From assembly GCA_965204795.1 (NCBI GenBank), contig OZ242012.1, positions 355,861 through 419,860 of the forward strand: 64,000 nt of DNA, in the 5' to 3' direction. Below the pieces are notes generated by a model that was given only the letters and a program-made list of their open reading frames with translations, was not told the DNA's origin and did no database searches. Positions 5,576-27,451 of the stretch are shown here, piece after piece (position 1 is the first letter of the stretch; each line of letters begins with the position of its first letter). Source of the stretch: Thermodesulfobacteriota bacterium. GTDB taxonomy: Bacteria > Desulfobacterota_D > UBA1144 > Nemesobacterales > Nemesobacteraceae. The position numbers and the translations under genes were made by a program.

Positions 5576-5596
5576 ACAGGGACGGGGCGTCCCGTT

Positions 5597-5998: not shown

Positions 5999-6054
5999 GG
6001 CAATCGCCGTTTCCGTATATAATATAACGGCTCGGGGGAGGAAATGTCCGCGTC

Positions 6055-7667: not shown

Positions 7668-7740
7668 ATTCCGGCCGCGCGGCGGGATTTTCGGCCTGTC
7701 ACGGCCGCGCGGATGTGGTAACATAGAAGTCTCTTTTCGC

Positions 7741-7814
7741 TGGGGCGTCGTCTAACGGCAGGACACCGGGTTTTGGTCCCGGTAGTGAGGGTTCGATTCC
7801 TTCCGCCCCAGCCA
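7741..7814 (+). tRNA. tRNA-Gln (anticodon TTG)
   Basis: Acceptor stem tggggcg/cgcccca, anticodon arm ccggg-tt-TTG-gt-cccgg, GTTCGATTCC T arm, encoded CCA. Confidence 0.95.
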
Positions 7815-7843
7815 CTCCTAACTGAAACGGTTTCGAAGCGTCC

Positions 7844-11432: not shown

Positions 11433-11482
11433 GGCGCGGGCGGCGGTGCCGATAAACAAGTATATTGTTTCGGGAGAGATTC

Positions 11483-11767
11483 ATGAAATACAGAAAGAAC
11501 AAGATAAAGAGAGAGCATTCGATAATAAAGGGACTCCGGCGTTTTCTCGAGGACAACGTCTCGGTGCTTGACCACGTGAAAAGCGTGATCCCCGGCGAGA
11601 TAAAGGTCGGCAGGAAGACGGGGGAGAACCTCGCGGTGAGCTACAAGTACGAGACGGGAAGCGGGGCGAAGCTCATAGCCAGAAGCGGCACCTCGGTCCA
11701 GGAGGTGTTCGTCACCACGAGCGACCCCGAGGCGCTTCGCAGGGTGATAGAGTCTTCAGGGAAATAG
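11483..11767 (+). CDS. DUF2103-like small protein
   Basis: HSIIKGL, KSVIPGEI and KLIARSGTSVQEVFVTT resemble DUF2103. Confidence 0.7.
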   Translation: MKYRKNKIKREHSIIKGLRRFLEDNVSVLDHVKSVIPGEIKVGRKTGENLAVSYKYETGSGAKLIARSGTSVQEVFVTTSDPEALRRVIESSGK

Positions 11768-14700: not shown

Positions 14701-15202
14701 TGTCGCCGAAAATCTCCCTGTAGAGAGACGCGGTCTTGAGCTGCTCCTTTTTGTCCTTTCTGAAAATCGACTGGCAGAGCTCCCCGCTCATGCAGCCCGA
14801 GAGGATTATGAGCCCCTCGTTGTGCTCGGAGAGCATCTCGTGGTCCACCCTGGGGCGGCGGTAGAAACCCTCGAAGTATCCCCTCGTGACCAGCCGGGAG
14901 AGGTTCCTGTAGCCGGTCTCGTTCATGCAAAGCGCCGTGAGGTGGTAGTTTTTTCCGTCCGCCGGCCTCTCGAGCCTGAGAGTCGGGGTGACGTAGAGCT
15001 CGCAGCCTATTATGGGCTTTACTCCCGCGGCCCTTGCCTTTTCGAAAAACTCGTACGCCCCGAAAAGGTTTCCGTGATCCGTGACGGCCACCGCGGGCAT
15101 GGAGTGCTTCTTGGCCCTCTCGATCAGCTCCTCGAACTTTATCGAGCCGTCGAGAAGCGAGTACTGCGAGTGCAGGTGCAGGTGGACGAAGGAGTCTTGC
15201 AT
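11756..15202 (-). CDS. dnaE: DNA polymerase III alpha subunit
   Basis: FVHLHLHSQYSLLDG (PHP), GPGRGSAAGS, MPDIDVDF, KFDFLGLKTL, YSFNKSHSAAY and an OB fold. Start at ATG 15202. Confidence 0.97.
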   Translation of the reverse strand: MQDSFVHLHLHSQYSLLDGSIKFEELIERAKKHSMPAVAVTDHGNLFGAYEFFEKARAAGVKPIIGCELYVTPTLRLERPADGKNYHLTALCMNETGYRNLSRLVTRGYFEGFYRRPRVDHEMLSEHNEGLIILSGCMSGELCQSIFRKDKKEQLKTASLYREIFGDRYYLEVQAIDLPEQKRVNSEIKKIGKRLGIKLAATNDCHFLRKEDYRSHDTLLCIQTGSMVADEKRLRFQSDDFYVKTREEMERDLRGFDDAIEESFRISERCDFEFRNEGYRFPLYEPPDGRSLEEYLNDVSREGLGKILAEGEADPGLSETYRQRLETELETIRQMGFSGYFLVVADFISFAKRNGIPVGPGRGSAAGSLAAYSLGITDIDPIKHGLIFERFLNPERISMPDIDVDFCAEHRDEIIRYVTDKYGEDKVAQIGTFGTMSSKAVIKDVGRVLGLPYGDVDKLSKLIPTFRGKVFSIEEAVKKVRDVKRALEENGELARAVEVAKSLENMVRHSSTHAAGIVIANEPIADYIPLYRGSKNETVTQFDMNSIEKLGYVKFDFLGLKTLTIIDKAVGFIRENQGPDEEDFDIRKIPLDDPGVYKLLSDGMTRGVFQVESSGMKDMLAKLQPTEFGDITAALALYRPGPLDSGMVEDFIRVKKGGKISFPHPALREILAETYGLFVYQEQIMQTASEIAGFTMGEADLLRRAMGKKKASEMKAQRERFLTGAEKNGVGPKKARELFDTMEKFAEYSFNKSHSAAYAMITYRTAYVKVHHTAEFMAAFMSVEAHNVDKVVSGITECRRAGIDVLQPDINLSSSGFTVSGGKIRFGFTAVKYVGDAIIEEMVSEREKNGKYESVTDFCARVDSRKLTRKAFESLVAGGAFDSLNPDRAQLFDSCEALLAYNSMKRRDSDGQATLFDLSESVREPALAESEGWDEGEKLERELDILGFYVSSHPLMKYSAELDRDSSLRDSEAVSQARDGKEVKTAGVVRAFETKNTKKGTGRIGYVTLEDLNGFTEVVVFNDTLDRCDYLLKQKVEPLVVRGKVENSDERTRLLASEISRLRGNGAASSVRIAVAGESATEENISRLREILEKFPGGSTVVINLRTPDSEALLRAGNCRVGFGAELVESVEGLLGEGTVSLGENLFP

Positions 15203-15755
15203 GGGAAACGGGGTAATTATACATTCTTCCCCCGTTTCATCCAGAGGCCGGCGGGAAAACGACGGCCGCCGGGCTTTGGCCAAACGGCTGCGCGTTAAGC
15301 ATCGCATCCCGCGCCATGCCTCGCGCTCGCGTTACGGTTGCGGATGGCGGACTGCCGTTGTTGGGCGGTGTTCGGAAAACGGCAAAAGAGAGACGGAACT
15401 TATTACGACCGCACGGGAGACGCGATGCGTATAGAGCACGATATTCTCCGGCAGGGAAAGAAGCCGTACTGCTGACCCGGCCGCTATGATAATGACCCCC
15501 CTCACTACTCCATCGCTGGAGAGAACCCCCGGGTTCTTGTCATCAAGGGGGTACCTTTGGAACGGCGAATAGCTTACCACTTCCAGAGTTGTTAATTCAA
15601 GGGGTGTGTTTCGCTATCCCGCGCAGGGTGGATTTTCTTTCAGTCAAGCCAGGCAGCCGGACACGGAAATTTCCCCTCGACGTTTTCGTCCCCAGGGAAT
15701 TAAGTCGGGCGTTTTGGAACCTCTCCGGATTTTCCGGCAACCGTTTCGGCGGCCT

Positions 15756-15941
15756 TCAGTCCTTGAAGACCGTTATAAGTATCAGAAGACTCGCCAGGAA
15801 GCACAATATCCCCGCAAGTCTGATCCTGAGGGACAAGCCGGTGAAAAAAATCATCGCGAGTCCCAGCACGAGCCCGCCGCCGGCCGCGACTCCGAGAAAC
15901 ACATCCAGAGGTCCCGAAAGCTTGTAAGGCACCATATCCAT
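15756..15941 (-). CDS. Small two-TM membrane protein (61 aa)
   Basis: GAGAGGA about 7 nt upstream of the ATG and two clear hydrophobic helices. No family recognised. Confidence 0.55.
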   Translation of the reverse strand: MDMVPYKLSGPLDVFLGVAAGGGLVLGLAMIFFTGLSLRIRLAGILCFLASLLILITVFKD

Positions 15942-16170
15942 ATACGTATCCTCTCAACAGCGATTCAAGGGCAAATCTCCTTCGTTTCGGAAACGGAATT
16001 TTATTGGAAAACATGGCGTCTTGTCAATCGGTTTTTCCTGTTTGGGCTTATCAGGCTTCTGATTGTAATACGAAATGACCGCCGAACTACAACGGGGATG
16101 TACGGTAATTGGGTAGAGAGGCAAAGTTTGTGTAGAATTCAATCGGACTTCCGGAGGCCGTGCGGTACTG

Positions 16171-17076
16171 ATGAAACTGCTTGACGCGATTGACAGTCTT
16201 AAGGTCTCGACCAGGGGAGACATAAGATCTCCTCACAAGCCTCTGTTTCTTCTGTACGCACTTGCGAAACAAGCGCGGGATTCAAACGCGAAGTTTGAGT
16301 TCTCGAAAATAAGAAAAGATGTTCAAACGCTTCTGAAAAAATTCGGACGGCCCGTTAAGTCCAGCAGTCGAGTATATTATCCATTCTGGCGTCTACAAAA
16401 CGATGGAATCTGGAAAGTGTGTTCGGATGAAGAGATAAGGCTGACTGGACAGGGCGACGCCTATGCGCCCGACTTGATAAAGTACAACGCCACAGGTTGC
16501 TTTTCCGCGGAGATTGCTCGGGAGATAAGAGAAAATCCGAATCTTGTTCCAATGGCCGCTCAGAAGTTGCTGGACGGGCATTTTCCCGAAACGTTGCACA
16601 GGGAAATTAGAGATGAGCTGGAAAGCATGGGTTTGTCTTGGGAAATGGATTACCACAAGCCGTCCCCGAAGACTAAAAGAGATCCCAAGTTTCGTAAAAA
16701 AGTTCTCTACGCTTACAAGTACAGTTGCGCTGTGTGCGGCTTCGACTTGCACTTGGGAGACATGCCGGTCGCGCTGGAAGCGGCGCACATAAAGTGGCAT
16801 CAGAACGGAGGGCCGGATACGGAAGACAACGGGCTTGCCCTGTGCTCTACCCACCATGCGCTTCTTGATTCTGGGGCACTTGGTTTATCTGATGATTATC
16901 AGGTTGTTTTGTCAAAATCCGCGCATAGTCCCAGCAACAGAAAGAGCTCCATAATGGAGCAGAAACTCCGAAAACGGAGAATTACTTTGCCTGCGGACGA
17001 GCGAAACTATCCGAACGTGAAATACATTCGCTGGCACAGAAGAGAGGTGTTCAACGAGCACGAAATTGCTCTTTAG
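16171..17076 (+). CDS. Phosphorothioated-DNA-binding restriction endonuclease (SBD-HNH), copy 1
   Basis: N-terminal PHKPLFLLYAL and YYPFWRLQNDGIW match the ScoMcrA-type sulfur-binding pocket (H-R/K-P plus Y-P-F-W-x-L). C-terminal CAVCG...LEAAHIKWH..GGPD...NGLALCSTHH..LD.G is an HNH domain. Confidence 0.8.
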   Translation: MKLLDAIDSLKVSTRGDIRSPHKPLFLLYALAKQARDSNAKFEFSKIRKDVQTLLKKFGRPVKSSSRVYYPFWRLQNDGIWKVCSDEEIRLTGQGDAYAPDLIKYNATGCFSAEIAREIRENPNLVPMAAQKLLDGHFPETLHREIRDELESMGLSWEMDYHKPSPKTKRDPKFRKKVLYAYKYSCAVCGFDLHLGDMPVALEAAHIKWHQNGGPDTEDNGLALCSTHHALLDSGALGLSDDYQVVLSKSAHSPSNRKSSIMEQKLRKRRITLPADERNYPNVKYIRWHRREVFNEHEIAL

Positions 17077-17126
17077 AGTATTAAGGAAGTAGTTTCTTGA
17101 CAGATGGTCAGGCTGGGTTGAGGAAG

Positions 17127-18020
17127 ATGAAGTTACTGGATGCGATTGACAATCTTAAGACTTGGAAGCGGGGAGGTGAAAGAGCCCCTCACAAGCCGTT
17201 ACTTCTTCTCTACGCCCTTGCTAAATATACTAACGACCCCGAAGCGAAACTCGAGTTTTCCCTTATAGAGGATGATATTCACGAGCTTTTGAATGAGTTC
17301 TGGAAGATAAGACCGAGTAAACATCACGTGAATGACCCGTTCTGGCGTCTTCAGAACGACAAAATCTGGCAAGTGGAGGCCGATGGGGAGATAAGGCAAA
17401 CATCTTCGGGTTCCGCTTATGTCGCCGACCTGAAAAGGTACAATGCGGCAGGTTTTTTCTCTCATAATGTTGCCAAGGAGATAAGAGACAATCCGAATCT
17501 TGTGCAAAGAGCTGTACAGAAGCTTCTGGACGAACATTTTCCCGAAACGTTGCACACGAGCCTTCGGGAAAGTGTAGGGCTGTTTCATGGAACGATTTCT
17601 TATGAGAAATCTTCCAAGAAGATCAGGCGAGACCCTAAGTTCCGCGAAAATGTTCTTCACGCTTACGGATACAGTTGTGCCGTATGCGGCTTTAATCTTC
17701 GAGTAAAAACCCTCCCTGTGGGACTGGAGGCGGCTCATATAAAATGGCATCAGTACGGAGGACCGGACACGGAGAACAACGGCCTTGCGCTTTGCGCTAC
17801 TCATCACAAGCTTCTCGACTCGGGGGTGCTGACACTTTCTGAAGACTACAGGGTTATCCTGTCGAAGTGGGTACACAGCCCGGACGACTCGGACAAGTTC
17901 ATCGAGCGACATCAAGAACGGGAAATCAGATTGCCGACGAACAAGAAACATTCCCCCGGCAAAGACTATATTCGCTGGCACAGGAAAGAAGTGTTCAAAG
18001 AACCTGAAATTGCTCTTTAG
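17127..18020 (+). CDS. Phosphorothioated-DNA-binding restriction endonuclease (SBD-HNH), copy 2
   Basis: GGERAPHKPLLLLYAL, NDPFWRLQNDKIW and the same HNH motifs. Paralogue of 16171-17076 (same MKLLDAID start and EIAL end). ATG at 17127 follows GAGGA. Confidence 0.8.
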   Translation: MKLLDAIDNLKTWKRGGERAPHKPLLLLYALAKYTNDPEAKLEFSLIEDDIHELLNEFWKIRPSKHHVNDPFWRLQNDKIWQVEADGEIRQTSSGSAYVADLKRYNAAGFFSHNVAKEIRDNPNLVQRAVQKLLDEHFPETLHTSLRESVGLFHGTISYEKSSKKIRRDPKFRENVLHAYGYSCAVCGFNLRVKTLPVGLEAAHIKWHQYGGPDTENNGLALCATHHKLLDSGVLTLSEDYRVILSKWVHSPDDSDKFIERHQEREIRLPTNKKHSPGKDYIRWHRKEVFKEPEIAL

Positions 18021-18077
18021 TCAAAGTCGGGTATATTAAATTCCAGTGTTCTTTTGTTTTTTCCACTTCTGCCGATT

Positions 18078-20021
18078 ATGACGGGAACTAACAGTTTCGC
18101 ATCTCTCCAATTTACCGGCCTGTCCTCCCCTGAAGGTTTTGCATCCAAGAGTTTAGCCACCGAGAACACCGTCGAGCCTGGTCCCATAGTGCGTGAACTC
18201 ATACAGAATTCACTAGACGCGGGGCATCTGGCGGGACGGGAGCAAGTAAAGGTCTGTTTCGCTCTGGAAGAAGTCGCGACATGCGACTTGCCGGGGATAG
18301 AAGAGTACGAAAGGGCGTTTGACGCCGCGAAGAAAACCCACAAGGATCATCTGGGAAATGTCGGAGCGCAGATTTCCCGTATAGAAAAAAGCCTGGAGGC
18401 GAAGGCCGTAAGAATTTTGAACGTGCGCGACAACGGGATAGGTCTCGACCCTGAAAAGATGAATTCGCTCCTGGGAGACGGAACGACGAGCAAGAACGAG
18501 GGAGGATTGGCCGGTTCATACGGACTCGGTCACTTTACCGCGTTCCCGGCTTCGAACCTTCAATTCGTTCTCTACGGCGGAGTGACGAAGGATTCAACGC
18601 GGACGGCGTCCGCGCACGCCATACTCGCATCACACGAAATCGACGGTGGAGTGAAGGGAAAAGACGGTTTCCTGATCAAAAGCATTCATGAAGAAAAAGT
18701 GCGCGACCGCTATGTCTTTCCGACAAATGGTGAAATTGCCCCCTTGCTGGACTCGCAGCTCGATGTTGTTGAAAGAGACTATGGTTCGGGTTCCGTGATT
18801 TCAATCACGGCTTTCAATAATTTCCTTGAGAACGACGAGGATTCTTCCGTAATGGCGATTCTTACCACGGCCGCCATGCATTTTTCTCCTGCCGTCCATA
18901 ACGGTTCCCTTGTAGTCGAGGTGGTTAGAAAAAATGGCTCCGAGCGGAAAATTTTGGACAGACAGTCACTAGGTTCCATAATTCAGGAAAACAGAAAAGG
19001 CAGAAGAAGCGGTGAAGACAAGCTTTCACCCAGAAACGCGTATAATGCATACGAGACCCTCGTACGCGGCGAGAAACGTGAAGTCGAAACAAGTTTCGGG
19101 AAAGTGACTCTATGTATCCGTCAGTCTCCTCAGGACACCACCCAAATCAATCTTTTCCGTAGCGGCATGTGGATAAGTAACAACCTGCCCAGGAACAGAC
19201 GCTACAACTATTCGGACTACAAACAATTTAACGCGTTGGTGCTTATCAATCCCCCCAGTGAAGCCTTTGATTTAGTGCGTCTCTCCGAGGGCGAAAAACA
19301 TCTGGACATAAATTCCAAGAGACTGGTTGACGAGCAAAAAATCAGGTTTGACAGCTTCTGGGGGGAAATCAGAAATAAGATTACCGAAAGTCTGGAGAAG
19401 TCGGAATCTGACGAGTTTTCTCCCAACGTTTTCATACTTACTCCTCCTGAAAGAAAAGAACCTAGGTCGACCGTACGTCGCAAGTCTTCCACGCCCGAAA
19501 CCCCGGAAATCAATCTGGAAGAGCAAGTGCCGGAACCCGCTTTTGCGCCCGCCGACCCGGAAGACCCGATTTATCCAGACCCCGGCCCCGGTCCGCGCAA
19601 TCCAAAAAAATCTTCGGGACCGGGCGACGAGCCTGGCGATGTTCCGTCTTTTAACCGGAGCGGTCGAGTCGCGGATGTTCTAACCGCCGCCAAGTTTGAC
19701 TCAGAACGGGTGAGGCTGGTCATACGCAGCAACGAGGACATGATAAACGCGGGAGTCAGATTGTGTCTGGATAACGGAGCCGACGCTTCCTGCGAAAAAC
19801 CCGCAGCGGACCAATTCATTCCGTTCGGGAAGAACGCTCTTCTGGATGGAATTCCTCTTGAAGACGATTACTACCGAGAAGGTCGCGAAGGAGCGTTGGA
19901 ACTTTTGATAGGAGCTATAGCAAAGGGTCAGACTAAAACGGTGACCCTTCCTCTTGTGAGCGTACTTCCTCAGGATGCCGTCGTGAAAGTAAACATAGTG
20001 AGCAGGGAAAAGGAAAAGTAG
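18078..20021 (+). CDS. GHKL (MORC/Hsp90/MutL-fold) ATPase-domain protein with Pro/Gly-rich linker
   Basis: Bergerat-fold motifs RELIQNSLDA, VRDNGIGL, GSYGLGHF and GSGSVISI, plus the linker PDPGPGPRNPKKSSGPG. Start is ATG 18078 or TTG 18054. Confidence 0.75.
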   Translation: MTGTNSFASLQFTGLSSPEGFASKSLATENTVEPGPIVRELIQNSLDAGHLAGREQVKVCFALEEVATCDLPGIEEYERAFDAAKKTHKDHLGNVGAQISRIEKSLEAKAVRILNVRDNGIGLDPEKMNSLLGDGTTSKNEGGLAGSYGLGHFTAFPASNLQFVLYGGVTKDSTRTASAHAILASHEIDGGVKGKDGFLIKSIHEEKVRDRYVFPTNGEIAPLLDSQLDVVERDYGSGSVISITAFNNFLENDEDSSVMAILTTAAMHFSPAVHNGSLVVEVVRKNGSERKILDRQSLGSIIQENRKGRRSGEDKLSPRNAYNAYETLVRGEKREVETSFGKVTLCIRQSPQDTTQINLFRSGMWISNNLPRNRRYNYSDYKQFNALVLINPPSEAFDLVRLSEGEKHLDINSKRLVDEQKIRFDSFWGEIRNKITESLEKSESDEFSPNVFILTPPERKEPRSTVRRKSSTPETPEINLEEQVPEPAFAPADPEDPIYPDPGPGPRNPKKSSGPGDEPGDVPSFNRSGRVADVLTAAKFDSERVRLVIRSNEDMINAGVRLCLDNGADASCEKPAADQFIPFGKNALLDGIPLEDDYYREGREGALELLIGAIAKGQTKTVTLPLVSVLPQDAVVKVNIVSREKEK

Positions 20022-20033
20022 AGGGCGATTCCG

Positions 20034-20879
20034 GTGGCATCCGTACTTCCAAGGATTCATTCTTATCCGGTACTGGCGAAAAACAGTTTGGATTATCTGC
20101 CGGAGCATCAATACGAAACGCAGCACAGCCGCACTGAGAGCAAGGACAGTCCTTTCATAACAATCGACCACCAAATTTCGGAGAGCAATCTGGTGGCGAG
20201 GTTCATATCGGAAGGATATGCGGCTTTTGCATGTACTCTGACATCAGCTCATTCCGCTTACAGAGAAGTTTTTGTTGAAAAAACGAGGGACCTGAAACAC
20301 ATCCAGAAACTCGCATGGGATAATCGAAAGGTGTTGTTTCCTCTTCTTTTTCAGCCCGCGGTCGTAGTATTGAGGGAAATAAAAGACTGTTATCTCGGCG
20401 GAGCTGACGGAGTGCATGAAATATGGAGGGGCAGTAGGGCATCCTTTCCAAAAGGTTCGATACTGGCGATCGCGCCTTTCTGGCAGTCTCAAAGCACGGC
20501 ACAGAGCATCCTCCGCATACGCAAGGAGGAGGAAATTCCGGAGGGATGTTACGAAGTGATTGAATCGGTAGAGGAAGGATTCTATTTTCTGGTCAAAGCA
20601 AGCCCCAAGCTTTTCGACTCTCTTCAGAACCCGGGCAAGCACAGTCTTCGCCACAGAGACAGCATATATACGGCTGCATTTGCCGAAGGACTGGGTATCC
20701 TGAACAGAGAGTTCAAGGACGAAGAAAAATGGAGAAACTATCATAACCTGAGGTCTCTTCATGCTGAGTTGAAGAGAAAAAAGCTCAAGGCATGGTACGA
20801 CGATGATTTCAGTCCGAACCGTGCCGCGGCGGCTTTTCTTCCGCACAAAATAGATACGGAGGCTTCTTCTGATGATTAA
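20034..20879 (+). CDS. Hypothetical protein (281 aa) of the islet operon
   Basis: Long ORF 12 bp after the GHKL gene and overlapping the next gene. No catalytic motif recognised. Confidence 0.7.
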   Translation: MASVLPRIHSYPVLAKNSLDYLPEHQYETQHSRTESKDSPFITIDHQISESNLVARFISEGYAAFACTLTSAHSAYREVFVEKTRDLKHIQKLAWDNRKVLFPLLFQPAVVVLREIKDCYLGGADGVHEIWRGSRASFPKGSILAIAPFWQSQSTAQSILRIRKEEEIPEGCYEVIESVEEGFYFLVKASPKLFDSLQNPGKHSLRHRDSIYTAAFAEGLGILNREFKDEEKWRNYHNLRSLHAELKRKKLKAWYDDDFSPNRAAAAFLPHKIDTEASSDD

Positions 20880-21756
20880 GGAAATTCTGGTCTCGGGGAA
20901 TCTGGGCAAGCTCAGAAGCGACCTCATCGGAAAATCGTCTGATGAGAATGGCCTTCGCTTAAAAAAACAGAAGGAACTTGCCGAGTTGGCAATAGACTCA
21001 GATAGCCGAAAGTTCGTCAACTACTTCAAATCTCATTGCAAAACAGAAGTTCTAGCGCAATGGGGTAATGGTTCTACCCCCCCCCCTAAAAATCGGCGTT
21101 TAACCGAATCAGAACTTTTCGAACCGCCTCAAGACACCGAAGAGGCGGTTTTCAATTCGTTAAGAAATCTTCCCCGGAGGCTGGCCTCCTACCCCGCGTT
21201 CTGGACGAGCTATCACCTCGACATGATGGAGTCCGGTCTTGTGGAACCCAGTTACTTTGCCAAGGTGCAGATCAGCGAGGCCGGCCAAGCGCGCACCGAG
21301 AAAGCATTGGCTTTAGTCTCGGTTGACGAGAAACCTCTTGACCGGTGTATCCGAACGATTCTGCGTCGCATGGGCGGATTGCCGGAAGCCCGGGGTTCCG
21401 TAAGCGTCTTTCAGGATTGCAGAACGGCCAGATCTTGGTGGAGAGGCTTGTTTGTGGATGAAGTTTGCGGGGAGTTAGGGACGGATAGGGACAGGGCATG
21501 GAAGGTTTTGAGGACAAACCAGATATGGGAGCAGTTAACGGGTTACGTCGTGCAGAAGCTTACGGTTCTGGGAGATACGAGGATCAGGATTGCGCTGATA
21601 GCTTACTTCGCCGAGATGGATTCCGTTCCCAACGACCGGGACAAGGTTCAGGACATTCTCAACCGCATAGGACGAAGAACCGCGTACCAGATGATGGGGG
21701 TACTGTCGCCCAAGGAAAATCTGGAGATTATAAGGAGCATTTGTCGTGAGTCCTGA
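20872..21756 (+). CDS. Hypothetical protein (294 aa), DUF6339-like
   Basis: Overlaps both neighbours. LASYPAFWTSYH and RTARSWW resemble, from memory, DUF6339-type motifs; not verified. Confidence 0.5.
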   Translation: MIKEILVSGNLGKLRSDLIGKSSDENGLRLKKQKELAELAIDSDSRKFVNYFKSHCKTEVLAQWGNGSTPPPKNRRLTESELFEPPQDTEEAVFNSLRNLPRRLASYPAFWTSYHLDMMESGLVEPSYFAKVQISEAGQARTEKALALVSVDEKPLDRCIRTILRRMGGLPEARGSVSVFQDCRTARSWWRGLFVDEVCGELGTDRDRAWKVLRTNQIWEQLTGYVVQKLTVLGDTRIRIALIAYFAEMDSVPNDRDKVQDILNRIGRRTAYQMMGVLSPKENLEIIRSICRES

Positions 21757-23017
21757 CATCGGCAAGATCAGGTTGAGCAAGGTGCCGGACCTGTCCATTC
21801 AGTACGAGATGGATGAACATAGAACATGGCCGCACGTGCTCAAGTTTTCGGGAGGAAGGTCAAGCGCGATGCTGCTCGTTTCTCTTCTGAAGAACCGCCA
21901 GCTGAAACCGTCCCGGGGCGATGTGGTCATCTTCAACAACACGGCCGCGGAGCACCCTGCCACTTACGAATTCGCTTCCATATGCAAGAGGCTCGCTGAA
22001 GAGCGCTATAACATCCCGTTTTTCTGGATAGAGTTCAAAACTTATGAGGATGCCAGAAGAGGAAGGTGGACGCGTCTTTCAAACTACAGGCTGGTAAAAG
22101 ATCATCCATTCGCGGCTAATCGTCCTTACGGCTATCGGTACAAGGGCGAAGTGTTTGAGGAAATGCTTTCGTGGAAGCAGCGTCTTCCAAACCATCTGCA
22201 GCGACTCTGCACACAGCACCTCAAACTGGAAACCACGATTAATTTTCTCGGGGACTGGTTCGCTTTCAAAACCGGCACTCCGCGTCTGGGGCACTGGCAC
22301 GGTGGGAGTCGGGTCAATTTTCTCGGACGGGGCGACCTGAAAAAAATCGTAAGTTATCACCTTAGCACTTCCGTGGAGAGACCCGCCCAGAAGTTTCGGG
22401 ATTATACGAAAGCGTCTCCAATACGCATAAGAAATTCCAGTATGCAAAACAAGAGTTTCGGTGGGACCGCAGAGTTGAAAGGAGATAATCCGGTGGACTT
22501 TGTGACTCTCGTGGGTCTTCGAGCCGATGAATTTCGCAGGGTTGCCAGAGTGAAGGCCAGGAACAACGGCGGACTTGCGGAAGACAACGCCGACAAGCTG
22601 GCTCACGGAGAACACATCTACACGCCGCTTGCGGACCATGGGATTACCAAGAACGACACTATGGAATTCTGGCTCAGGCAGTCCTGGGATCTGCGAATTC
22701 CTCACTCCGTCAATTTTTCAAACTGCGTTTACTGTTTCATGAAAGGAAAAAAAGCTCTCACGCGAATAATAAAAGAGCAGTCGGAAAACCCTATTCCGGT
22801 CAGGTACCGCAAAACTCCGGTCGATATTGCTTGGTGGATAGACATTGAAAACCGTTACGCCCGCAGGGTCTCCAGCACTAAAGAAGAAAACTCGATGACA
22901 CGGTTCGGCTTCTTCGGGGCGAATTCACCCACAACATACTCCTCTCTCTACGAAGACGCAGAGGAGGATGAAGGCGTATTTATAGATGATGCCATGCCTT
23001 GTGACTGTACCGATTAG
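21746..23017 (+). CDS. PP-loop / PAPS-reductase-like (adenine nucleotide alpha hydrolase) protein with Cys clusters
   Basis: FSGGRSSAML PP-loop, NNTAAEHPATYEF, RLCTQHLK, VGLRADE..R, PLADHGITK, SNCVYCFMKG and C-terminal PCDCTD. Confidence 0.8.
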   Translation: MSPDIGKIRLSKVPDLSIQYEMDEHRTWPHVLKFSGGRSSAMLLVSLLKNRQLKPSRGDVVIFNNTAAEHPATYEFASICKRLAEERYNIPFFWIEFKTYEDARRGRWTRLSNYRLVKDHPFAANRPYGYRYKGEVFEEMLSWKQRLPNHLQRLCTQHLKLETTINFLGDWFAFKTGTPRLGHWHGGSRVNFLGRGDLKKIVSYHLSTSVERPAQKFRDYTKASPIRIRNSSMQNKSFGGTAELKGDNPVDFVTLVGLRADEFRRVARVKARNNGGLAEDNADKLAHGEHIYTPLADHGITKNDTMEFWLRQSWDLRIPHSVNFSNCVYCFMKGKKALTRIIKEQSENPIPVRYRKTPVDIAWWIDIENRYARRVSSTKEENSMTRFGFFGANSPTTYSSLYEDAEEDEGVFIDDAMPCDCTD

Positions 23018-23023
23018 AGAAAA

Positions 23024-24202
23024 GTGGATTATGGAACAATGAAGAACGGTTTGAAAACAGTGTATCTGGATCATCAGGCGACGACGCCTGTAGATTCCCG
23101 AGTGCTTGCCGCAATGAAGCCGTTTTTCAGGAATTTTTTCGAGAATCCGCATACCGATAATTATCGCTCCGCGGTCCAAGTGCGTGAAGCGGTGGAGAAG
23201 GCGAGGATACAGATCGCCCGGGCAATCGGCTCGCGCAGTGCGGCGGCGGTTGTATTCACTGGAAGTGCTACCGAGGCAAACAATCTCGCCATTTGCGGAA
23301 CAGCTGCCGCTGCGAGAAGAGGACGCAACCGGATCGTTACCCTAGCTACGGAACATAAGGCTGTGCTGGAACCCGTGAAGGCGATGGTCAATGCCGGATT
23401 TGAAGTGTCTATTCTTAAGGTTCAGCGCAACGGGATAGTTGACTTGGATGTTGTCCGCAAGTCTGTTGATTCGCGCACTCTTTTGCTGTCGGCAATGATG
23501 GTCAACAACGAAACAGGGGTCATACAACAGATAAAGGAAATAGCGGGAATCTGTCATGAACAGGGAGTCATTTTTCACAGCGACTGCGCCCAGGCTCTCG
23601 GCAAGATTCCCGTTGACGTGTCGGAACTTGATTTGGACTTGGCGACTTTTTCCGCACACAAAGCCTACGGTCCGAAAGGAATAGGGTGTCTTTACGTTCG
23701 CCCGCGCCCGAGAGTGAGGATAAAACCCGTAATTCTAGGAGGAGGGCAAGAAGGAGGACTTCGTTCGGGAACTTTGCCAGTACCTCTATGTGTCGGTTTC
23801 GGTGTAGCTGCAAAAATAGCTAGTGAGCAAACAGATAAGGACATGGAAAAGATTACAAAGCTGACCGATATGCTGTTTCACGGCATCAGGAAAATCAAAC
23901 CTGATGTGATGCTTAACGGAGACCCTGAAAAGCGAGCTCCAGGATGTCTTAACATTATGTTTCCTGGTTACAGAAGCGATAGTTTGCTTCAGGCTATTCC
24001 TCAAGTTGCTGCATCCACGGGTTCTGCCTGCGCGGCAACGGAAACTAACCCGTCTCATGTATTGCGTGCTTTAGGTCTTTCAAAAGATCAGGCTAACAGT
24101 TCGGTGCGTTTTGGGGTCGGTCGCGGGACGACCCGAAAGGAAATATTGAAAACATTAGATGTTATAAATGAGGCAATTAGTTCTAGGGTGGAAAACTACT
24201 AG
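23024..24202 (+). CDS. Cysteine desulfurase (IscS/NifS class; DndA/SspA-like by context)
   Basis: YLDHQATTP, FTGSATEANN, DCAQALGK, SAHKAYGPKG (PLP lysine), GGGQEGGLRSGT and STGSAC (catalytic Cys). No isc/suf neighbours. Confidence 0.92.
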   Translation: MDYGTMKNGLKTVYLDHQATTPVDSRVLAAMKPFFRNFFENPHTDNYRSAVQVREAVEKARIQIARAIGSRSAAAVVFTGSATEANNLAICGTAAAARRGRNRIVTLATEHKAVLEPVKAMVNAGFEVSILKVQRNGIVDLDVVRKSVDSRTLLLSAMMVNNETGVIQQIKEIAGICHEQGVIFHSDCAQALGKIPVDVSELDLDLATFSAHKAYGPKGIGCLYVRPRPRVRIKPVILGGGQEGGLRSGTLPVPLCVGFGVAAKIASEQTDKDMEKITKLTDMLFHGIRKIKPDVMLNGDPEKRAPGCLNIMFPGYRSDSLLQAIPQVAASTGSACAATETNPSHVLRALGLSKDQANSSVRFGVGRGTTRKEILKTLDVINEAISSRVENY

Positions 24203-24213
24203 GAGGGAATCCA

Positions 24214-26487
24214 ATGTCTGGTATTGATCTGCAAGGCTATGAATCTCGCGTATACAATATCCATCATCTTTTTGATAAAACGGAAGAAGGTTTCTTCGTC
24301 CCGTTGTATCAACGGGAATACACTTGGGTAGACGAGAATATAAACCAGTTTTTTGAGGATCTTGTATTAGGTATATGGGAACTTTCCAATAAAAATGATA
24401 AAAATGCAGTAACTTTCTTCGGCACTCTAATTTTTACGAATTTAGTTGACAAGACAACCACTGTGAAAAAGGGTGAAGACAATGCTCAGCCTACGGCAGT
24501 TCAACTTGTTATTGATGGTCAGCAACGTATTTCTACAATAGCCCTCTTGGCAATTCAGTTAAGGGAACGACTTAAATCGTTCAGAAGCAAATTACCGGAT
24601 GGAAACCTCTACAAAGTTCTGAGAAATCATTGTGATGATCTGAAGGACGAAAAACTTCCCAAACTCTATACGATCAAGCTGGGACGTGGTGCAAATCCAC
24701 CAAAGAAACCCAAAATTATTTCCGCTAAAGGAGAAGATCGGTGGACATATGACGGTGGTGATGAGTCGTATGGTTCTCCTGTGGCACATTATATTGCAAC
24801 TTATATACGTGAAGAGGATCTTGAGAAAGCGTTTGACTCAATTGTCTCTGTACGTGTACACAAGAACGTTAAATTGATAAATCGATGGCTTGATGGAATT
24901 TGCTCTAACGAACCCGGTTCTTTGCATGACGGTCAGTTTCCGACGGATACAGAGATCGTTTCGGATAGGATGCAAGAATATATTCTCGGCTATAAAAGCG
25001 ATCAGATAAGAAATGTCATTGGACAGAATTGTGATAATAGCTCACATATTGCCACACAGACTTACCGTCTTTTTTTACTTGCTTACTATCTACTAAATCG
25101 TTGTGCAGTAAACCGCCTGCAACCTCCACATGAGGATTGGGGCTTTGATATGTTTCAGGCCCTTAATGCAACTGGTACACCGCTTACGGCTATGGAAACA
25201 TTTCTTCCCAATGTTATGCGAGCTGAAAAGAGAGTTGGAAACGAATGGGAGAAAACACCATCTTCTGAACATATGGACGAAATTGAACAGCTTTTTAAAG
25301 CGACAAATAATAACCAACAGAAAAGCCGTCGCACCAATGAACTTCTGAACACTTTCGCTTTGTGCTATGAGGGTAAAAAACTCGGAAATAAATTCAGCAC
25401 ACAGAGAAGGTGGATAACAGATATCTATGAAAACAATTTGCAAAATCTTGAAGAAAAACGTGAATTTCTTCGTCATCTTGCAGATGTTGGAAAATTTTTT
25501 TATGTCGCTTGGTACATGGAAGATAATCCCGGTCATATCATGGGGCTTGAACATCACGAAGAGGAGGGGAATTTAGTTCCTTTTCTCATTCGCTACTTGA
25601 AGGATGCAAATTCCAAACTTTCCGCGCCAATACTGGCACGGTATTACAGTCAAGCAGTTAGGGATGAGAAATATATGGATGAGTTTGTTGAAGCTGTTAA
25701 GGCCTGTGCAGCCTTTTTTACATTATGGCGGTCTGCGCGGTCTGCAACGGGACTTGATAAGAATTACAGGAATTTTTTCAGAGGTGACAAAGGTAACAAA
25801 CATAACTGGCTACAACCCAAACAGGTTTCATCAAAAAGTCTAAAAGAACATTTTCTTGATGTTCTCAGAGATAATCAAATTTACGAAAAAGATTCATGGA
25901 TTGAGGAGTCGAAACGTTTCTTGCTTTATACGGAAGTAAAGGTTATCTGTCGTTTCGTGTTGTTTCTTGCGGGGCATGACCGTGCTGGTGATGATACAAG
26001 GCCAGGGCTTACGACTTCCGGTAACACGGGAGTCTGTTCGCTTCTTAATCTTGAAAAATGGCTCTCAAAAAATTATAAATCGTTGGAACATATTGCACCC
26101 CAAAAGCCTCCGAAAAAACATAATTGGGATAGGGGTATCTATACGGGAAATAAGGTGCATGAAGTTGGAAATCTTTTACTATTGCGGACGGAAGTTAACA
26201 GACTTGCTGACAATAAGAATTGGGTCGAAAAATTTCTTTACTACTCTCATGTTGGCAAAAGTAGGGACCAAGACATTAAGGAGCTCAGAGAAGAAGCGGA
26301 AAAAGAAGGGATAAGGCTTAGCGAAAAAGCTATTAAAGAATTGTTAACAACTCCTTATGCCCGTGTGGTAGAACCTGTACTGACTTTAGGCAAAGGGGGT
26401 CGTTGGGATGCTAGAATGATTGATGAAAGGACAAATCAGATCAAGGAAATAGCTTGGGAAAAACTCACGTCTTGGTTGAAAATTTGA
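24214..26487 (+). CDS. DUF262-DUF1524 protein, SspE-like (GmrSD superfamily) restriction effector
   Basis: FFVPLYQREYTW, VIDGQQR, FDMFQALNATGTPLTAMETF, and C-terminal SLEHIAPQ...GNLLLL...N HNH-like nuclease. Length (757 aa) and internal motifs fit the SspE clade as I recall it. Confidence 0.75.
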   Translation: MSGIDLQGYESRVYNIHHLFDKTEEGFFVPLYQREYTWVDENINQFFEDLVLGIWELSNKNDKNAVTFFGTLIFTNLVDKTTTVKKGEDNAQPTAVQLVIDGQQRISTIALLAIQLRERLKSFRSKLPDGNLYKVLRNHCDDLKDEKLPKLYTIKLGRGANPPKKPKIISAKGEDRWTYDGGDESYGSPVAHYIATYIREEDLEKAFDSIVSVRVHKNVKLINRWLDGICSNEPGSLHDGQFPTDTEIVSDRMQEYILGYKSDQIRNVIGQNCDNSSHIATQTYRLFLLAYYLLNRCAVNRLQPPHEDWGFDMFQALNATGTPLTAMETFLPNVMRAEKRVGNEWEKTPSSEHMDEIEQLFKATNNNQQKSRRTNELLNTFALCYEGKKLGNKFSTQRRWITDIYENNLQNLEEKREFLRHLADVGKFFYVAWYMEDNPGHIMGLEHHEEEGNLVPFLIRYLKDANSKLSAPILARYYSQAVRDEKYMDEFVEAVKACAAFFTLWRSARSATGLDKNYRNFFRGDKGNKHNWLQPKQVSSKSLKEHFLDVLRDNQIYEKDSWIEESKRFLLYTEVKVICRFVLFLAGHDRAGDDTRPGLTTSGNTGVCSLLNLEKWLSKNYKSLEHIAPQKPPKKHNWDRGIYTGNKVHEVGNLLLLRTEVNRLADNKNWVEKFLYYSHVGKSRDQDIKELREEAEKEGIRLSEKAIKELLTTPYARVVEPVLTLGKGGRWDARMIDERTNQIKEIAWEKLTSWLKI

Positions 26488-26776
26488 GTACGCTAACGCT
26501 GGCAAACAAAGGCTAGCGGGAGTTTGTTGCGAAACGAGTCAAGCTTCCATGTAAGAACAATCTAGCTCGCTGAAACGCTCTGTATTACCCTAATTATTAC
26601 TTCCAACAATATACTTTATCCTGGCCTAGGGAGAATGGTACTGCTCAGAACTGCTAAGTTCTTGAAGAAGAAAATCCTGTTTCAACAGGCAGTTGTAAAA
26701 GGACTGGAGCCATCCCAGTTAATATGAACCCCAGTGGGTAATAATGCCCAATTCTCAATAAAACCAGATTCCCTCC

Positions 26777-27451
26777 CTACCTGCACCTTCTCTCAATTTC
26801 CCCAATTCTCTCTCTTTCACGCGAGTCGCTTCCGAGTCCCCATATCCTCTTGACCCGTTTCCACGAACGAACGTACTCGCAGTGATAGGTTCGATTCGAC
26901 GGAAGCCATCTCGCGGGATCTTTTGCTCCCTTCGCTCGATTTTCCCTTCTTGAAACGGCGATGAGAGTGTCGGGGTAGGAAAGATCGTTAGCGAAACTCC
27001 GTTTCCTCGCAGTGCTCCAGTACGCTCCGCCGCTTATATGGGCTTCCTTCAGCGGAACGAGATGGTCCACGTCAAGCTCCTTCGGATTTGTAAAAACTTT
27101 TCCGGAGTAAGGGTCCGCCCACTTCCCCGAAACCACCCAGCAGCCGTCGGCGGAAAGAGTAACGGGAACGAGCGATTCCTCTATAAGCACCTCGTGCCGC
27201 GTGTTCTGGCAGTCCCCGTCGGCGTCTCCCCATCTCGGAAGCCATTCCTTCCGGTTGTACCTGGAACCTCCGTAGGATTTCTTCCGGTTCTCGGCTTCGG
27301 GACCCCGGTGGCAGTGACGCTCCCCGGTTTTCCTGTCGGCGTGACATCCCCGCTTGTCCAGCCCTCCGCCGTGCCCAAAAGCGGAAGAACTCCAGAACAG
27401 GAGGGCGCAGAGCGCCGCGAGCGGAATAACCAGGCTTCTATTGTTCGGCAA
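26777..27451 (-). CDS. Secreted HNH (DUF1524-type) endonuclease with an N-terminal YHYH-like His motif
   Basis: Signal peptide, HGGGLDKRGCH...HCH, then TRHEVL, LDVDHLVPLKEAH.SG, FANDL, NRAKGAKDPARWLP and CEYVRSW. Confidence 0.8.
   Translation of the reverse strand: MPNNRSLVIPLAALCALLFWSSSAFGHGGGLDKRGCHADRKTGERHCHRGPEAENRKKSYGGSRYNRKEWLPRWGDADGDCQNTRHEVLIEESLVPVTLSADGCWVVSGKWADPYSGKVFTNPKELDVDHLVPLKEAHISGGAYWSTARKRSFANDLSYPDTLIAVSRRENRAKGAKDPARWLPSNRTYHCEYVRSWKRVKRIWGLGSDSRERERIGEIERRCR

What the first reader, a model, noticed from the sequence alone, without database searches (positions are those of the whole stretch)
18078..26487. Candidate new sulfur-DNA-modification defence operon: GHKL ATPase + two unknowns + PP-loop enzyme + cysteine desulfurase + SspE-like effector
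Seen: six co-oriented ORFs with gaps of 12 bp or less, or with overlaps (20021/20034, 20879/20872, 21756/21746, 23017/23024, 24202/24214), in a lower-GC islet. They encode a GHKL ATPase, 281 and 294 aa unknowns, an SGGRSS PP-loop protein with CxxC and CxC motifs, an intact cysteine desulfurase, and a DGQQR/EHxxP DUF262-DUF1524 protein. Established: a desulfurase plus a PAPS-reductase-like enzyme (DndA+DndC, SspA+SspD) is the chemical core of DNA phosphorothioation, and SspE is the PT-sensing effector of the Ssp system. Key anomaly: nothing here resembles DndB/D/E, SspB (DUF4007 nickase) or SspC (P-loop ATPase); a GHKL module sits in their place. Inference: this is an alternative PT or other thio-DNA writer in which the GHKL module supplies targeting and energy, coupled to SspE-type restriction. 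I do not recall this architecture among the Dnd, Ssp, Pbe, Tdp or BREX-4 loci.
Basis: partly seen in the sequence, partly recalled or inferred. Interest (0 to 1): 0.92.

Follow-up and report, generated by a model that had tools for sequence, protein, structure and literature searches.

The report
GHKL-driven DNA sulfur-modification defence operon
This low-GC island carries a widespread but undescribed version of the bacterial systems that mark their own DNA with sulfur and attack unmarked invaders: it keeps the usual sulfur chemistry genes, but a GHKL ATPase and two proteins of unknown fold replace the usual DNA-targeting proteins.

Summary
The six ORFs are real, intact and tightly packed. The cluster is larger than reported: two tandem PT-DNA-binding SBD-HNH endonuclease genes (16171-18020) lie directly upstream on the same strand.

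The core is a five-gene module: GHKL ATPase, U281, U294 (DUF6339-like), a PP-loop enzyme and a cysteine desulfurase. The genome scan found 330 relatives of the PP-loop gene. In the 80 fetched loci, from more than 10 phyla, the GHKL triad is present in 76-77 and the desulfurase in 65, in two gene orders.

The PP-loop enzyme is a remote SspD homologue (hhalign 94%, E 1e-7). U281, U294 and the GHKL protein show no relation to SspB/SspC or to PADLOC Dnd models, and no PDB fold match. They match only the uncharacterised PADLOC candidate PDC-M33.

The neighbours vary but are all linked to phosphorothioate (PT) systems: SspE, a shorter DUF262-HNH protein, SBD-HNH, Pbe-like genes, a dnd-associated methyltransferase and DndB-like DGQHR proteins. 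In the closest genome, SspE is replaced at exactly the same slot.

Best reading: a third architecture of PT (or closely related thio-DNA) restriction-modification. No paper found describes it. The chemistry and the phage protection are untested. Verdict: new variant of a known kind, high interest.

The parts
16171..17076 (+). SBD-HNH endonuclease, copy 1 (phosphorothioated-DNA-binding restriction endonuclease family)
   Evidence: NCBIfam NF045808 3.3e-91 (cut-off 180, score 305); Pfam HNH_2 2e-10. 59% identical to copy 2.
17097..18020 (+). SBD-HNH endonuclease, copy 2 (tandem paralogue)
   Evidence: NF045808 8.1e-97; HNH_2 1e-10. The orthologue in L081/L083 carries Pfam DNA-SBD_ScoMcrA plus HNH_2.
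18078..20021 (+). GHKL (Bergerat-fold) ATPase with a conserved middle region, a low-complexity linker and a C-terminal domain. The ORF opens at TTG 18054; ATG 18078 is the likely start.
   Evidence: PADLOC PDC-M33A 5e-26; HATPase_c_3 4.8e-4. Motifs E48/N52, D126-N-G-x-G and G154/G157/G159 are invariant in 27 homologues. Weak PDB profile hits to Hsp90, MORC3, MutL and TopoVI-B.
20034..20879 (+). U281, unknown partner protein (beta-rich N-terminal part, helical C-terminal part)
   Evidence: PADLOC PDC-M33B 1e-9. No Pfam hit in 27 members. AF2 pLDDT 70; Foldseek PDB best E 0.02, noise. Natural fusions with U294 exist.
20872..21756 (+). U294, all-alpha unknown protein, DUF6339-like
   Evidence: 12 of 22 family members hit Pfam DUF6339, best 2.6e-9. 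The L040 orthologue hits PDC-M33C at 9e-5. AF2 pLDDT 83.7, pTM 0.83; no PDB or BFVD fold match.
21746..23017 (+). PP-loop ATP pyrophosphatase of the PAPS-reductase superfamily, a divergent SspD/DndC-like sulfur-insertion enzyme with six invariant cysteines
   Evidence: SGGRSS, C80, C155, C327xxC330 and C419xC421 are invariant in 20 homologues. hhalign versus SspD: 94.2%, E 1.2e-7. PF01507 matches weakly in 20 of 20 members. PADLOC SspD 9e-9, BrxP 3e-4.
23024..24202 (+). Cysteine desulfurase (DndA/SspA/IscS type)
   Evidence: Aminotran_5 1.3e-75; PADLOC DndA 2e-138 and SspA 8e-138; below the equivalog cut-offs of IscS and DndA in NCBIfam.
24214..26487 (+). SspE-family effector (DUF262/GmrSD_N NTPase-sensor plus DUF1524/GmrSD_C nuclease), occupying a swappable effector slot
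   Evidence: PADLOC SspE 3.8e-209 over the full length. 27% identical over 99% of its length to DUF262 proteins inside canonical sspABCD-E loci on plasmids. GC 0.40. Replaced by a different DUF262-HNH protein at the same position in L001.
26497..26518 (+). Terminator-like hairpin 10 bp after the SspE stop codon (likely end of the transcription unit)
   Evidence: This is a consensus scan only, and the count of such sites is not above the shuffle expectation.

Best explanation
The cluster 16171-26487 is a restriction-modification-type defence island built on a previously undescribed DNA sulfur-modification module.

The writer (18078-24202) is proposed to work like DndACDE or SspABCD:
- The PLP-dependent desulfurase takes sulfur from cysteine as a persulfide. 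This is established for the family.
- The divergent SspD-like PP-loop/Cys-rich enzyme uses ATP to activate the DNA target, most likely a backbone phosphate, and inserts the sulfur. This is inferred from homology.
- A complex of the GHKL ATPase, U281 and U294 (DUF6339-like) takes the place of DndD/DndE or SspC/SspB. It would act as the ATP-driven DNA-clamping, scanning and site-selecting part. This is inferred from position, strict co-occurrence and fusion.

The readers are exchangeable. Here they are SspE, a PT-sensing NTPase and nickase that attacks unmodified invader DNA, and two SBD-HNH endonucleases with a sulfur-binding domain. In other genomes the readers are a shorter DUF262-HNH protein, Pbe-like genes and others.
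For: Recurrence of the five-gene core. The genome scan found 330 relatives of the PP-loop gene among 185,579 species genomes. Of the 80 loci fetched, 77 have GHKL, 77 have U281, 76 have U294 and 65 have the desulfurase. All lie on one strand, in two conserved gene orders, across more than 10 phyla.

Homology of the chemistry genes:
- The PP-loop family aligns to SspD over the PP-loop, CT..LKL, RADE and SxCxxCF motifs (hhalign 94%, E 1e-7).
- It has six invariant cysteines.
- The desulfurase matches PADLOC DndA/SspA at about 1e-138.

Guilt by association with six PT-linked families next to the module in different genomes:
- SspE (window; L081/L083 at E 1e-82 and 7e-68).
- SBD-HNH (NF045808/PF26340).
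- Pbe-like genes: PbeA 1e-146 / TIGR04095, and PbeC.
- TIGR04096 dnd-associated methyltransferase, 1e-183.
- DGQHR/DndB-like proteins.
- A DUF262 plus His-Me-finger protein, adjacent in 34 of 80 loci.

Effector-slot swap. The window and L001 are colinear on both sides (74% and 87.6% nt identity). They differ only at 24180-26778, where SspE is replaced by the shorter DUF262-HNH protein.

The triad acts as a unit. U281-U294 fusion proteins exist. Extra, divergent triads sit beside a single PP-loop gene in L003 and L031.

Desulfurase absence. 15 of 80 loci lack a linked desulfurase. This mirrors Dnd systems that use IscS in trans (PMC9521924).

Precedent for SBD-HNH. SBD-type HNH genes inside Dnd neighbourhoods are already documented (PMC10853773).
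Against: There is no experimental evidence of any modification or of phage protection. Nothing here distinguishes backbone PT from another sulfur modification.

The PP-loop enzyme is very divergent. It falls below Pfam gathering for PF01507, matches no PADLOC DndC model and has no PDB sequence match.

The roles of GHKL, U281 and U294 are assigned by exclusion. No DNA-binding or nuclease domain was recognised in them, whereas SspB supplies a nickase in Ssp.

PT-dependent SBD-HNH enzymes normally cut PT-DNA, so their presence beside a PT writer needs an explanation.

SspE was not found in any of the 80 genome loci.

The U281 model is of only moderate confidence (pLDDT 70).
Confidence: 0.72

Rival explanations
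1. The module writes a sulfur modification on DNA that is not a backbone phosphorothioate, for example a thiolated base. It would use the same desulfurase plus PP-loop chemistry that thiolates tRNA bases. The DUF262 and HNH readers would sense that mark instead.
For: PP-loop ATPases paired with cysteine desulfurases also perform nucleobase thiolation (established knowledge of ThiI, MnmA and TtuA). The enzyme is far from DndC and SspD: about 150 extra residues, a different C-terminal CxC, and no PADLOC DndC hit. The targeting proteins are entirely new.
Against: The only detectable homology is to the PAPS-reductase/SspD/BrxP branch, not to the ATP_bind_3 tRNA-thiolase branch. SBD-HNH and SspE, which are known PT readers, recur next to the module, as do Pbe-like and dnd-associated genes.
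Confidence: 0.13
2. Two independent systems happen to lie side by side. One is a self-contained GHKL-U281-U294 defence system (PADLOC candidate PDC-M33). The other is a reduced Ssp-like remnant (SspA, an SspD-like gene, SspE) that either does not need the triad or is non-functional.
For: PADLOC models PDC-M33A/B/C cover only the triad. Extra triads occur without their own PP-loop gene in L003 and L031. One locus, L013, has the PP-loop gene and desulfurase without a triad.
Against: The triad is next to the PP-loop gene in 76-77 of 80 loci, and two of the three loci lacking it have the PP-loop gene at a contig end, so most of the adjoining sequence is missing. The genes overlap or abut: 21756/21746 in the window, with similar junctions elsewhere. 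Both gene orders keep the two blocks adjacent. No SspB- or SspC-like partner is present to make the SspD-like enzyme work on its own.
Confidence: 0.08
3. It is a canonical Ssp or Dnd system whose SspB/SspC (or DndB/D/E) components have diverged beyond easy recognition. In that case it would be an already known system.
For: SspA-, SspD- and SspE-type proteins are present.
Against: A GHKL Bergerat fold is not the AAA+/P-loop fold of SspC or the ABC fold of DndD; its motifs are conserved. hhalign gives 0.2-0.3% probability for U281/U294 versus SspB and for GHKL versus SspC. There are no PADLOC SspB/C or DndB/D/E hits and no PDB fold match for U281 or U294.
Confidence: 0.03
4. The module has a housekeeping or biosynthetic role, such as tRNA thiolation, Fe-S or thio-cofactor synthesis. 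Its neighbours would then be coincidental defence-island cargo.
For: The desulfurase scores almost as well against IscS and NifS models as against DndA.
Against: Its distribution is rare and patchy: 330 relatives among about 185,579 species genomes, spread across phyla. It lies in a low-GC island. It is consistently linked to DNA nucleases and PT-associated genes. A decayed copy exists in L082. All of this is typical of defence cargo, not of a core function.
Confidence: 0.03

Closest known systems
SspABCD-SspE (single-strand PT modification with a PT-sensing effector)
   Same: SspA-type desulfurase. A PAPS-reductase-superfamily PP-loop enzyme homologous to SspD. A full-length SspE-family effector whose plasmid homologues sit in canonical sspABCD-E loci. 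The overall logic of a sulfur writer plus a DUF262-DUF1524 reader.
   Different: No SspB (DUF4007 nickase) and no SspC (AAA+ ATPase); a GHKL ATPase plus two novel proteins stand in their place. The SspD-like enzyme is about 150 residues longer, with different C-terminal cysteines. SspE is optional across the family.
DndABCDE (with DndFGH, Pbe, DndI or SBD-HNH partners)
   Same: DndA-like desulfurase that is sometimes absent from the locus. A DndC-like PP-loop/Cys enzyme. An ATPase plus small partner proteins as the presumed scanning core. Variable nuclease partners, including SBD-HNH, Pbe-like genes, the TIGR04096 methyltransferase and DGQHR proteins.
   Different: No DndD (ABC/SMC-like), DndE (RHH) or DndB in the window. 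The ATPase belongs to a different superfamily (GHKL). There is no PADLOC DndC hit.
BREX type 4 (BrxP PAPS reductase)
   Same: Weak BrxP similarity limited to the PP-loop region (3e-4). Use of PT-type chemistry inside a larger defence system.
   Different: No BrxA/B/C, PglZ or BrxL hits.
PADLOC candidate system PDC-M33 (uncharacterised)
   Same: GHKL matches PDC-M33A (5e-26; 9e-36 for L040). U281 matches PDC-M33B (1e-9). U294 of L040 matches PDC-M33C (9e-5).
   Different: The matches are partial and weak. Only the A, B and C models matched; neither the PP-loop enzyme nor the desulfurase matched any PDC-M33 model. No paper mentions PDC-M33.
MORC/paraMORC GHKL ATPases of restriction-modification operons (Iyer, Abhiman and Aravind 2008, PMC2292703)
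   Same: A GHKL ATPase embedded in an R-M-like operon together with HNH or other nucleases. The proposed role is ATP-driven DNA clamping or looping.
   Different: Those systems pair with methylases and SF2 helicases; no sulfur chemistry is reported. Membership of the present GHKL in any paraMORC family was not established.
EcoWI/ScoMcrA-type SBD-HNH PT-dependent restriction endonucleases
   Same: The two upstream genes pass the NCBIfam cut-off for this family.
   Different: They are encoded inside a putative PT-writing operon rather than in a PT-free host, and they are duplicated in tandem.

Membership tests
SspABCD-SspE | SspA cysteine desulfurase | tested here: met
   PADLOC SspA 8.4e-138 over the full length.
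SspABCD-SspE | SspB (DUF4007 nickase) | tested here: not met
   No PADLOC or Pfam hit in any ORF of the cluster. hhalign of U281 and U294 versus SspB gives probability 0.2-0.3%.
SspABCD-SspE | SspC (large AAA+/P-loop ATPase) | tested here: not met
   No hit. hhalign of GHKL versus SspC gives probability 0.2%. The ATPase present has GHKL motifs.
SspABCD-SspE | SspD (PAPS-reductase-like ATP pyrophosphatase) | tested here: inconclusive
   Remote homology only: PADLOC SspD 9e-9 over the N-terminal 50 residues; hhalign 94%, E 1e-7 over 177 columns. The protein is 423 aa versus about 280 aa and has a different C-terminus.
SspABCD-SspE | SspE (DUF262 plus DUF1524, PT-sensing) | tested here: met
   PADLOC SspE 3.8e-209 end to end; GmrSD_N and GmrSD_C. 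Homologues lie in canonical ssp loci. PT sensing itself is not testable here.
DndABCDE | DndD ABC/SMC-like ATPase and DndE RHH protein (the co-evolving core) | tested here: not met
   No PADLOC, NCBIfam or Pfam hit in the window cluster.
DndABCDE | DndC PAPS-reductase-like Fe-S enzyme | tested here: inconclusive
   No PADLOC DndC hit at E<=0.01. PF01507 matches weakly (0.043 in the window protein; 20 of 20 members, best 2e-4). Conserved cysteines are compatible with an Fe-S cluster.
BREX type 4 | BrxP together with BrxA/B/C, PglZ and BrxL | tested here: not met
   Only a 3e-4 BrxP hit on the PP-loop motif; no other Brx model matches.
PADLOC PDC-M33 | Proteins matching models A, B and C in one locus | tested here: inconclusive
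   In the window, A matches at 5e-26, B at 1e-9 and C not at all. In L040, A, B and C all match, with C at 9e-5. The system definition was not available.
GHKL ATPase superfamily | Bergerat-fold motifs I (ExxxN), II (DxGxG) and III (G-rich) | tested here: met
   E48/N52, D126-N-G128-x-G130 and G154/G157/G159 are invariant in 27 sequences. HATPase_c and HATPase_c_3 hits.
PT-dependent SBD-HNH endonucleases (NF045808) | Sulfur-binding domain plus HNH, score above the curated cut-off | tested here: met
   Scores of 305 and 324 bits against a cut-off of 180. PF26340 plus PF13391 on the orthologues.
Any PT system | Phosphorothioate linkages in the host DNA | not testable with these tools
   Needs iodine cleavage or LC-MS/MS on DNA.

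The most novel reading that the evidence does not exclude
The GHKL-U281-DUF6339 triad is a new, portable DNA-targeting engine. It recruits a highly divergent PP-loop sulfurtransferase to install a DNA sulfur mark that is chemically or topologically different from Dnd and Ssp phosphorothioates, for example a different atom, stereochemistry or strandedness. That would explain why PT-cutting SBD-HNH enzymes can coexist with it. Loci with several divergent triads per enzyme would encode several target specificities. On this reading the system is a dominant, overlooked immune strategy of marine-invertebrate (sponge) symbionts.
Probability: 0.15. Interest if true: 0.95.

Novelty: new variant of a known kind. 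Interest (0 to 1): 0.8.

Why it matters
DNA phosphorothioation is the only known natural modification of the DNA backbone. So far it is known with two targeting solutions. Dnd uses DndD and DndE. Ssp and BREX type 4 use an SspC/BrxC-type ATPase and DUF4007.

A third, unrelated solution would show that the desulfurase plus PP-loop chemistry is a module that different DNA-scanning machines can capture. That solution is a GHKL ATPase plus two proteins without a recognisable fold.

It would add a mechanistically new role for GHKL ATPases, which are relatives of MutL and MORC. It would give function to DUF6339 and to the PADLOC candidate PDC-M33.

It could also supply new sequence specificities for PT-based tools, since the family's PT-dependent nucleases are already used for mapping.

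The family is spread by horizontal transfer across more than 10 phyla. Judging from the record names, it is frequent in sponge and other marine-invertebrate symbionts, where defence gene enrichment is a long-standing observation.

Tried and rejected
- Sequence searches of U281, U294 and the PP-loop profile against all PDB chains found nothing below E 0.1.
- Foldseek found no match for the AF2 models: U294 against PDB and BFVD, U281 against PDB. 'Novel fold' is therefore only a provisional statement. The U281 model is of moderate quality.
- Word-indexed homologue searches for U281 and U294 returned only close relatives, 15 and 22 proteins. The AF2 alignments were therefore shallow.
- The viral contig scan gave only two weak relatives at 25-26% identity, so the module is not phage-borne.
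- Literature searches found no description of this architecture. The queries were 'PDC-M33', 'DUF6339', phosphorothio+GHKL, DndC/SspD+HATPase/MutL/paraMORC, and PAPS reductase+desulfurase+GHKL/MORC. The Rakesh/Aravind/Krishnan reappraisal of Dnd contains no GHKL or MORC term. The library is limited to open-access papers and bioRxiv, so absence is not proof.
- No flanking direct repeats, integrase or tRNA mark the island borders.
- The promoter and terminator scan is not above shuffle expectation.
- The idea that SspE is a fixed member was rejected: it was found in 0 of 80 genome loci.
- The YHYH/GmrSD_C gene (26777-27451, minus strand) was considered as a component and set aside. It belongs to the better-conserved flank, at 87.6% nt identity with L001 and GC 0.57.

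Full report
OBSERVATION

The six ORFs exist as described: 18054/18078-20021, 20034-20879, 20872-21756, 21746-23017, 23024-24202 and 24214-26487. All are on the + strand, with junctions of +12, -8, -11, +6 and +11 bp.

They lie in an island of GC 0.40-0.53. The flanks are dnaE (GC 0.60) on one side and an acyl-CoA ligase, tatC and serA (GC 0.58-0.61) on the other.

Library scans give:
- GHKL ATPase: HATPase_c_3 4.8e-4; PADLOC PDC-M33A 5e-26.
- U281: PDC-M33B 1e-9 only.
- U294: no hit.
- PP-loop protein: PADLOC SspD 9e-9 and BrxP 3e-4, both confined to the PP-loop region.
- Cysteine desulfurase: Aminotran_5 1e-75; PADLOC DndA/SspA about 1e-138.
- SspE: PADLOC 3.8e-209 over the full length; GmrSD_N plus GmrSD_C.

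They are 59% identical tandem paralogues. Both pass the NCBIfam cut-off for 'phosphorothioated DNA-binding restriction endonuclease' (NF045808; 305 and 324 bits against a cut-off of 180).

A terminator-like hairpin follows the SspE stop codon. The unit is therefore best drawn as 16171-26487.

RECURRENCE

The PP-loop protein defines a family with 746 matches (E<=0.001) among the database's 90%-identity protein clusters. Of the 120 best listed, only four carry a source name, and that name is 'hypothetical protein'. Twenty diverse members share invariant SGG.SS, C80, C155, C327xxC330 and C419xC421.

A scan of one genome per species (185,579 species) found 330 relatives, and the best 80 loci were fetched. 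They come from:
- Gamma- and Alphaproteobacteria
- Thermodesulfobacteriota
- Binatia
- Latescibacterota
- Dehalococcoidia
- Spirochaetia
- Acidobacteriota
- Longimicrobiales
- Rhodothermales
- Limisphaerales
- Entotheonella

tblastn with the window proteins found, next to the PP-loop gene and on the same strand:
- GHKL in 77 of 80 loci.
- U281 in 77 of 80.
- U294 in 76 of 80.
- The desulfurase in 65 of 80.

In two of the three loci without the triad the PP-loop gene lies at a contig end, so most of the adjoining sequence is missing. Two gene orders occur: GHKL-U281-U294-PP-Des, as in the window, and PP-Des-GHKL-U281-U294, the majority. This is a conserved five-gene module that moves horizontally.

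WHAT THE PARTS ARE

PP-loop enzyme. Profile-profile comparison with SspD, taken from two canonical plasmid sspABCD-E loci, gives 94% probability and E 1.2e-7. The alignment covers the PP-loop, the R.CT..LKL motif, the RADE motif and the S.C..CF motif. All 20 members also hit PF01507 weakly. The enzyme is therefore a distant member of the SspD/DndC/BrxP branch. It carries large insertions and its own C-terminal CxC.

GHKL protein. It keeps the Bergerat motifs invariantly (E48/N52, DNGxG and the G-rich lid). It finds only Hsp90, MORC3, MutL and TopoVI-B weakly in the PDB.

U281 and U294.
- Neither has a PDB relative by sequence.
- The AF2 models find no fold match: U294 has pLDDT 83.7 and pTM 0.83 and is all-alpha; U281 has pLDDT 70.
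- hhalign against SspB gives 0.2-0.3% probability, and GHKL against SspC gives 0.2%.
- Twelve of 22 U294 relatives match Pfam DUF6339.
- In L040 the three proteins match PADLOC PDC-M33A, B and C.
- An exhaustive HMM search finds 427 U294-family representatives at 50% identity. Several of them are U281-U294 fusions, for example P0196 and P0231, with hhalign E 7e-50 and 2e-40 to the U281 profile. The two unknowns therefore work together physically.

THE VARIABLE PARTNERS

ORFs of all loci were clustered and the recurrent neighbours annotated. The recurrent neighbours are:
- A protein of about 600 aa with an invariant FQR...DGQQR DUF262 domain and a C-terminal HH...N...N...H His-Me finger, adjacent in 34 of 80 loci.
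- Pbe-like genes in several loci: PbeA 1e-146 / TIGR04095 'DNA phosphorothioation system restriction enzyme', and PbeC/DndD-like.
- TIGR04096 'DNA phosphorothioation-associated putative methyltransferase' (1e-183), in 9 loci.
- DGQHR/DndB-like proteins.
- SBD-HNH, in 5 of the 80 fetched loci, besides the window.

The window's closest relatives from metagenomes (L081, L083) carry SBD-HNH, the five genes and a 750-773-aa SspE homologue (E 1e-82 and 7e-68). L082 is a decayed copy with split SBD-HNH, desulfurase and GmrSD genes.

The Thermodesulfobacteriota MAG L001 is the most informative comparison. It is colinear with the window over 17117-24179 (74% nt identity) and again from 26779 onward (87.6%). 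Exactly at 24180-26778 it has the short DUF262-HNH gene where the window has SspE. SspE, at GC 0.40, is thus a recently exchanged cassette in a dedicated effector slot.

MECHANISM

Shown here: homology of the desulfurase and of the PP-loop enzyme to the sulfur-mobilising and sulfur-inserting enzymes of PT systems; strict genetic coupling of these two with the GHKL triad; and coupling of the module to readers and nucleases known from PT systems.

Inferred:
- The desulfurase persulfide feeds the Cys-rich PP-loop enzyme.
- That enzyme adenylates a DNA backbone phosphate and thiolates it.
- An ATP-gated GHKL dimer with U281 and U294 clamps or scans DNA and defines the sites. It fills the place of DndD/DndE or SspC/SspB, an equivalence scheme laid out for Dnd and Ssp in PMC10853773.
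- SspE, which is PT-stimulated and nicks non-PT DNA according to the abstracts of PMC9646914 and PMC8092258, and the SBD-HNH enzymes provide restriction.

Fifteen loci lack a linked desulfurase. This fits the known replacement of DndA by IscS (PMC9521924).

Open points:
- Which protein, if any, nicks DNA as SspB does in Ssp.
- How PT-cutting SBD-HNH enzymes coexist with a PT writer. SBD-type HNH genes are also reported inside Dnd neighbourhoods.
- Whether the mark is really a backbone PT.

COMPARISON AND NOVELTY

The system works like Ssp and Dnd, but it fails the membership tests for both: no SspB or SspC, and no DndD or DndE. It also fails for BREX type 4.

GHKL ATPases in R-M operons are known as MORC/paraMORC (PMC2292703), but not with sulfur chemistry.

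The triad is catalogued only as the uncharacterised PADLOC candidate PDC-M33. No paper in the searchable library mentions PDC-M33 or DUF6339, or links GHKL proteins with DndC, SspD or phosphorothioation.

I therefore class it as a new variant of a known kind: PT-type restriction-modification with a new targeting and energy module. Confidence in the overall model is about 0.7. There is a smaller chance that the chemistry itself is new.

VERDICT

Interest 0.8.

Noticed in passing
window 37077-40924 (-) and 50762-54486 (+): Two separate Gabija-like gene pairs, each an OLD-family ATPase-TOPRIM protein (AAA_15, DUF2813, OLD-like_TOPRIM) next to a UvrD-type helicase. Each pair sits in its own lower-GC islet, so this genome segment carries at least three defence islands.
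   Followed up: partly
window 26777-27451 (-): A 224-aa protein with an N-terminal YHYH motif domain (NF033223) and a GmrSD_C/DUF1524 nuclease domain lies just downstream of SspE on the other strand. It is conserved (85% aa identity) at the same place in L001 and belongs to the better-conserved flank, so it is probably not part of the system.
   Followed up: partly
L001-L080 record titles: Many host names point to sponge or other marine-invertebrate symbionts: Poriferihabitans, Porisulfidus, Porifericomitales, Entotheonella, AqS3, Thioalkalivibrio sp. HK1, and Binatia, Latescibacterota and Dehalococcoidia MAGs with UUID isolate names. The habitat link rests on the names and my own knowledge. 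No metadata were checked.
   Followed up: no
L003:1033-8956; L031:3782-19148: Some loci hold two or three divergent GHKL-U281-U294 triads (30-37% identity between GHKL copies) beside a single PP-loop gene. This suggests several targeting modules sharing one catalytic enzyme.
   Followed up: partly
P0196 (584 aa), P0231 (608 aa) and other 550-660-aa hits: Natural fusions of U281 (N-terminal) and U294 (C-terminal) in one polypeptide.
   Followed up: yes
L082 (TARA scaffold), 5502-14847: A decaying copy of the whole system: SBD and HNH are split into two ORFs, the desulfurase is split (274 + 107 aa), and the GmrSD_N and GmrSD_C parts lie on separate ORFs.
   Followed up: no
window 15308-16170: About 860 bp between dnaE and the first SBD-HNH gene has no ORF with a family match (the 192-aa ORF at 15606-16184 has no Pfam hit) and no Rfam match. 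It is possibly the island's left junction or a regulatory region.
   Followed up: partly
L084:1-3446 and L085:4559-9982: In the canonical plasmid ssp loci used as reference, a very large FtsK/SpoIIIE-domain protein lies next to sspE or sspD.
   Followed up: no
window 35318-36301 (-): A PhoH-like ATPase gene lies next to the first Gabija-like pair.
   Followed up: no
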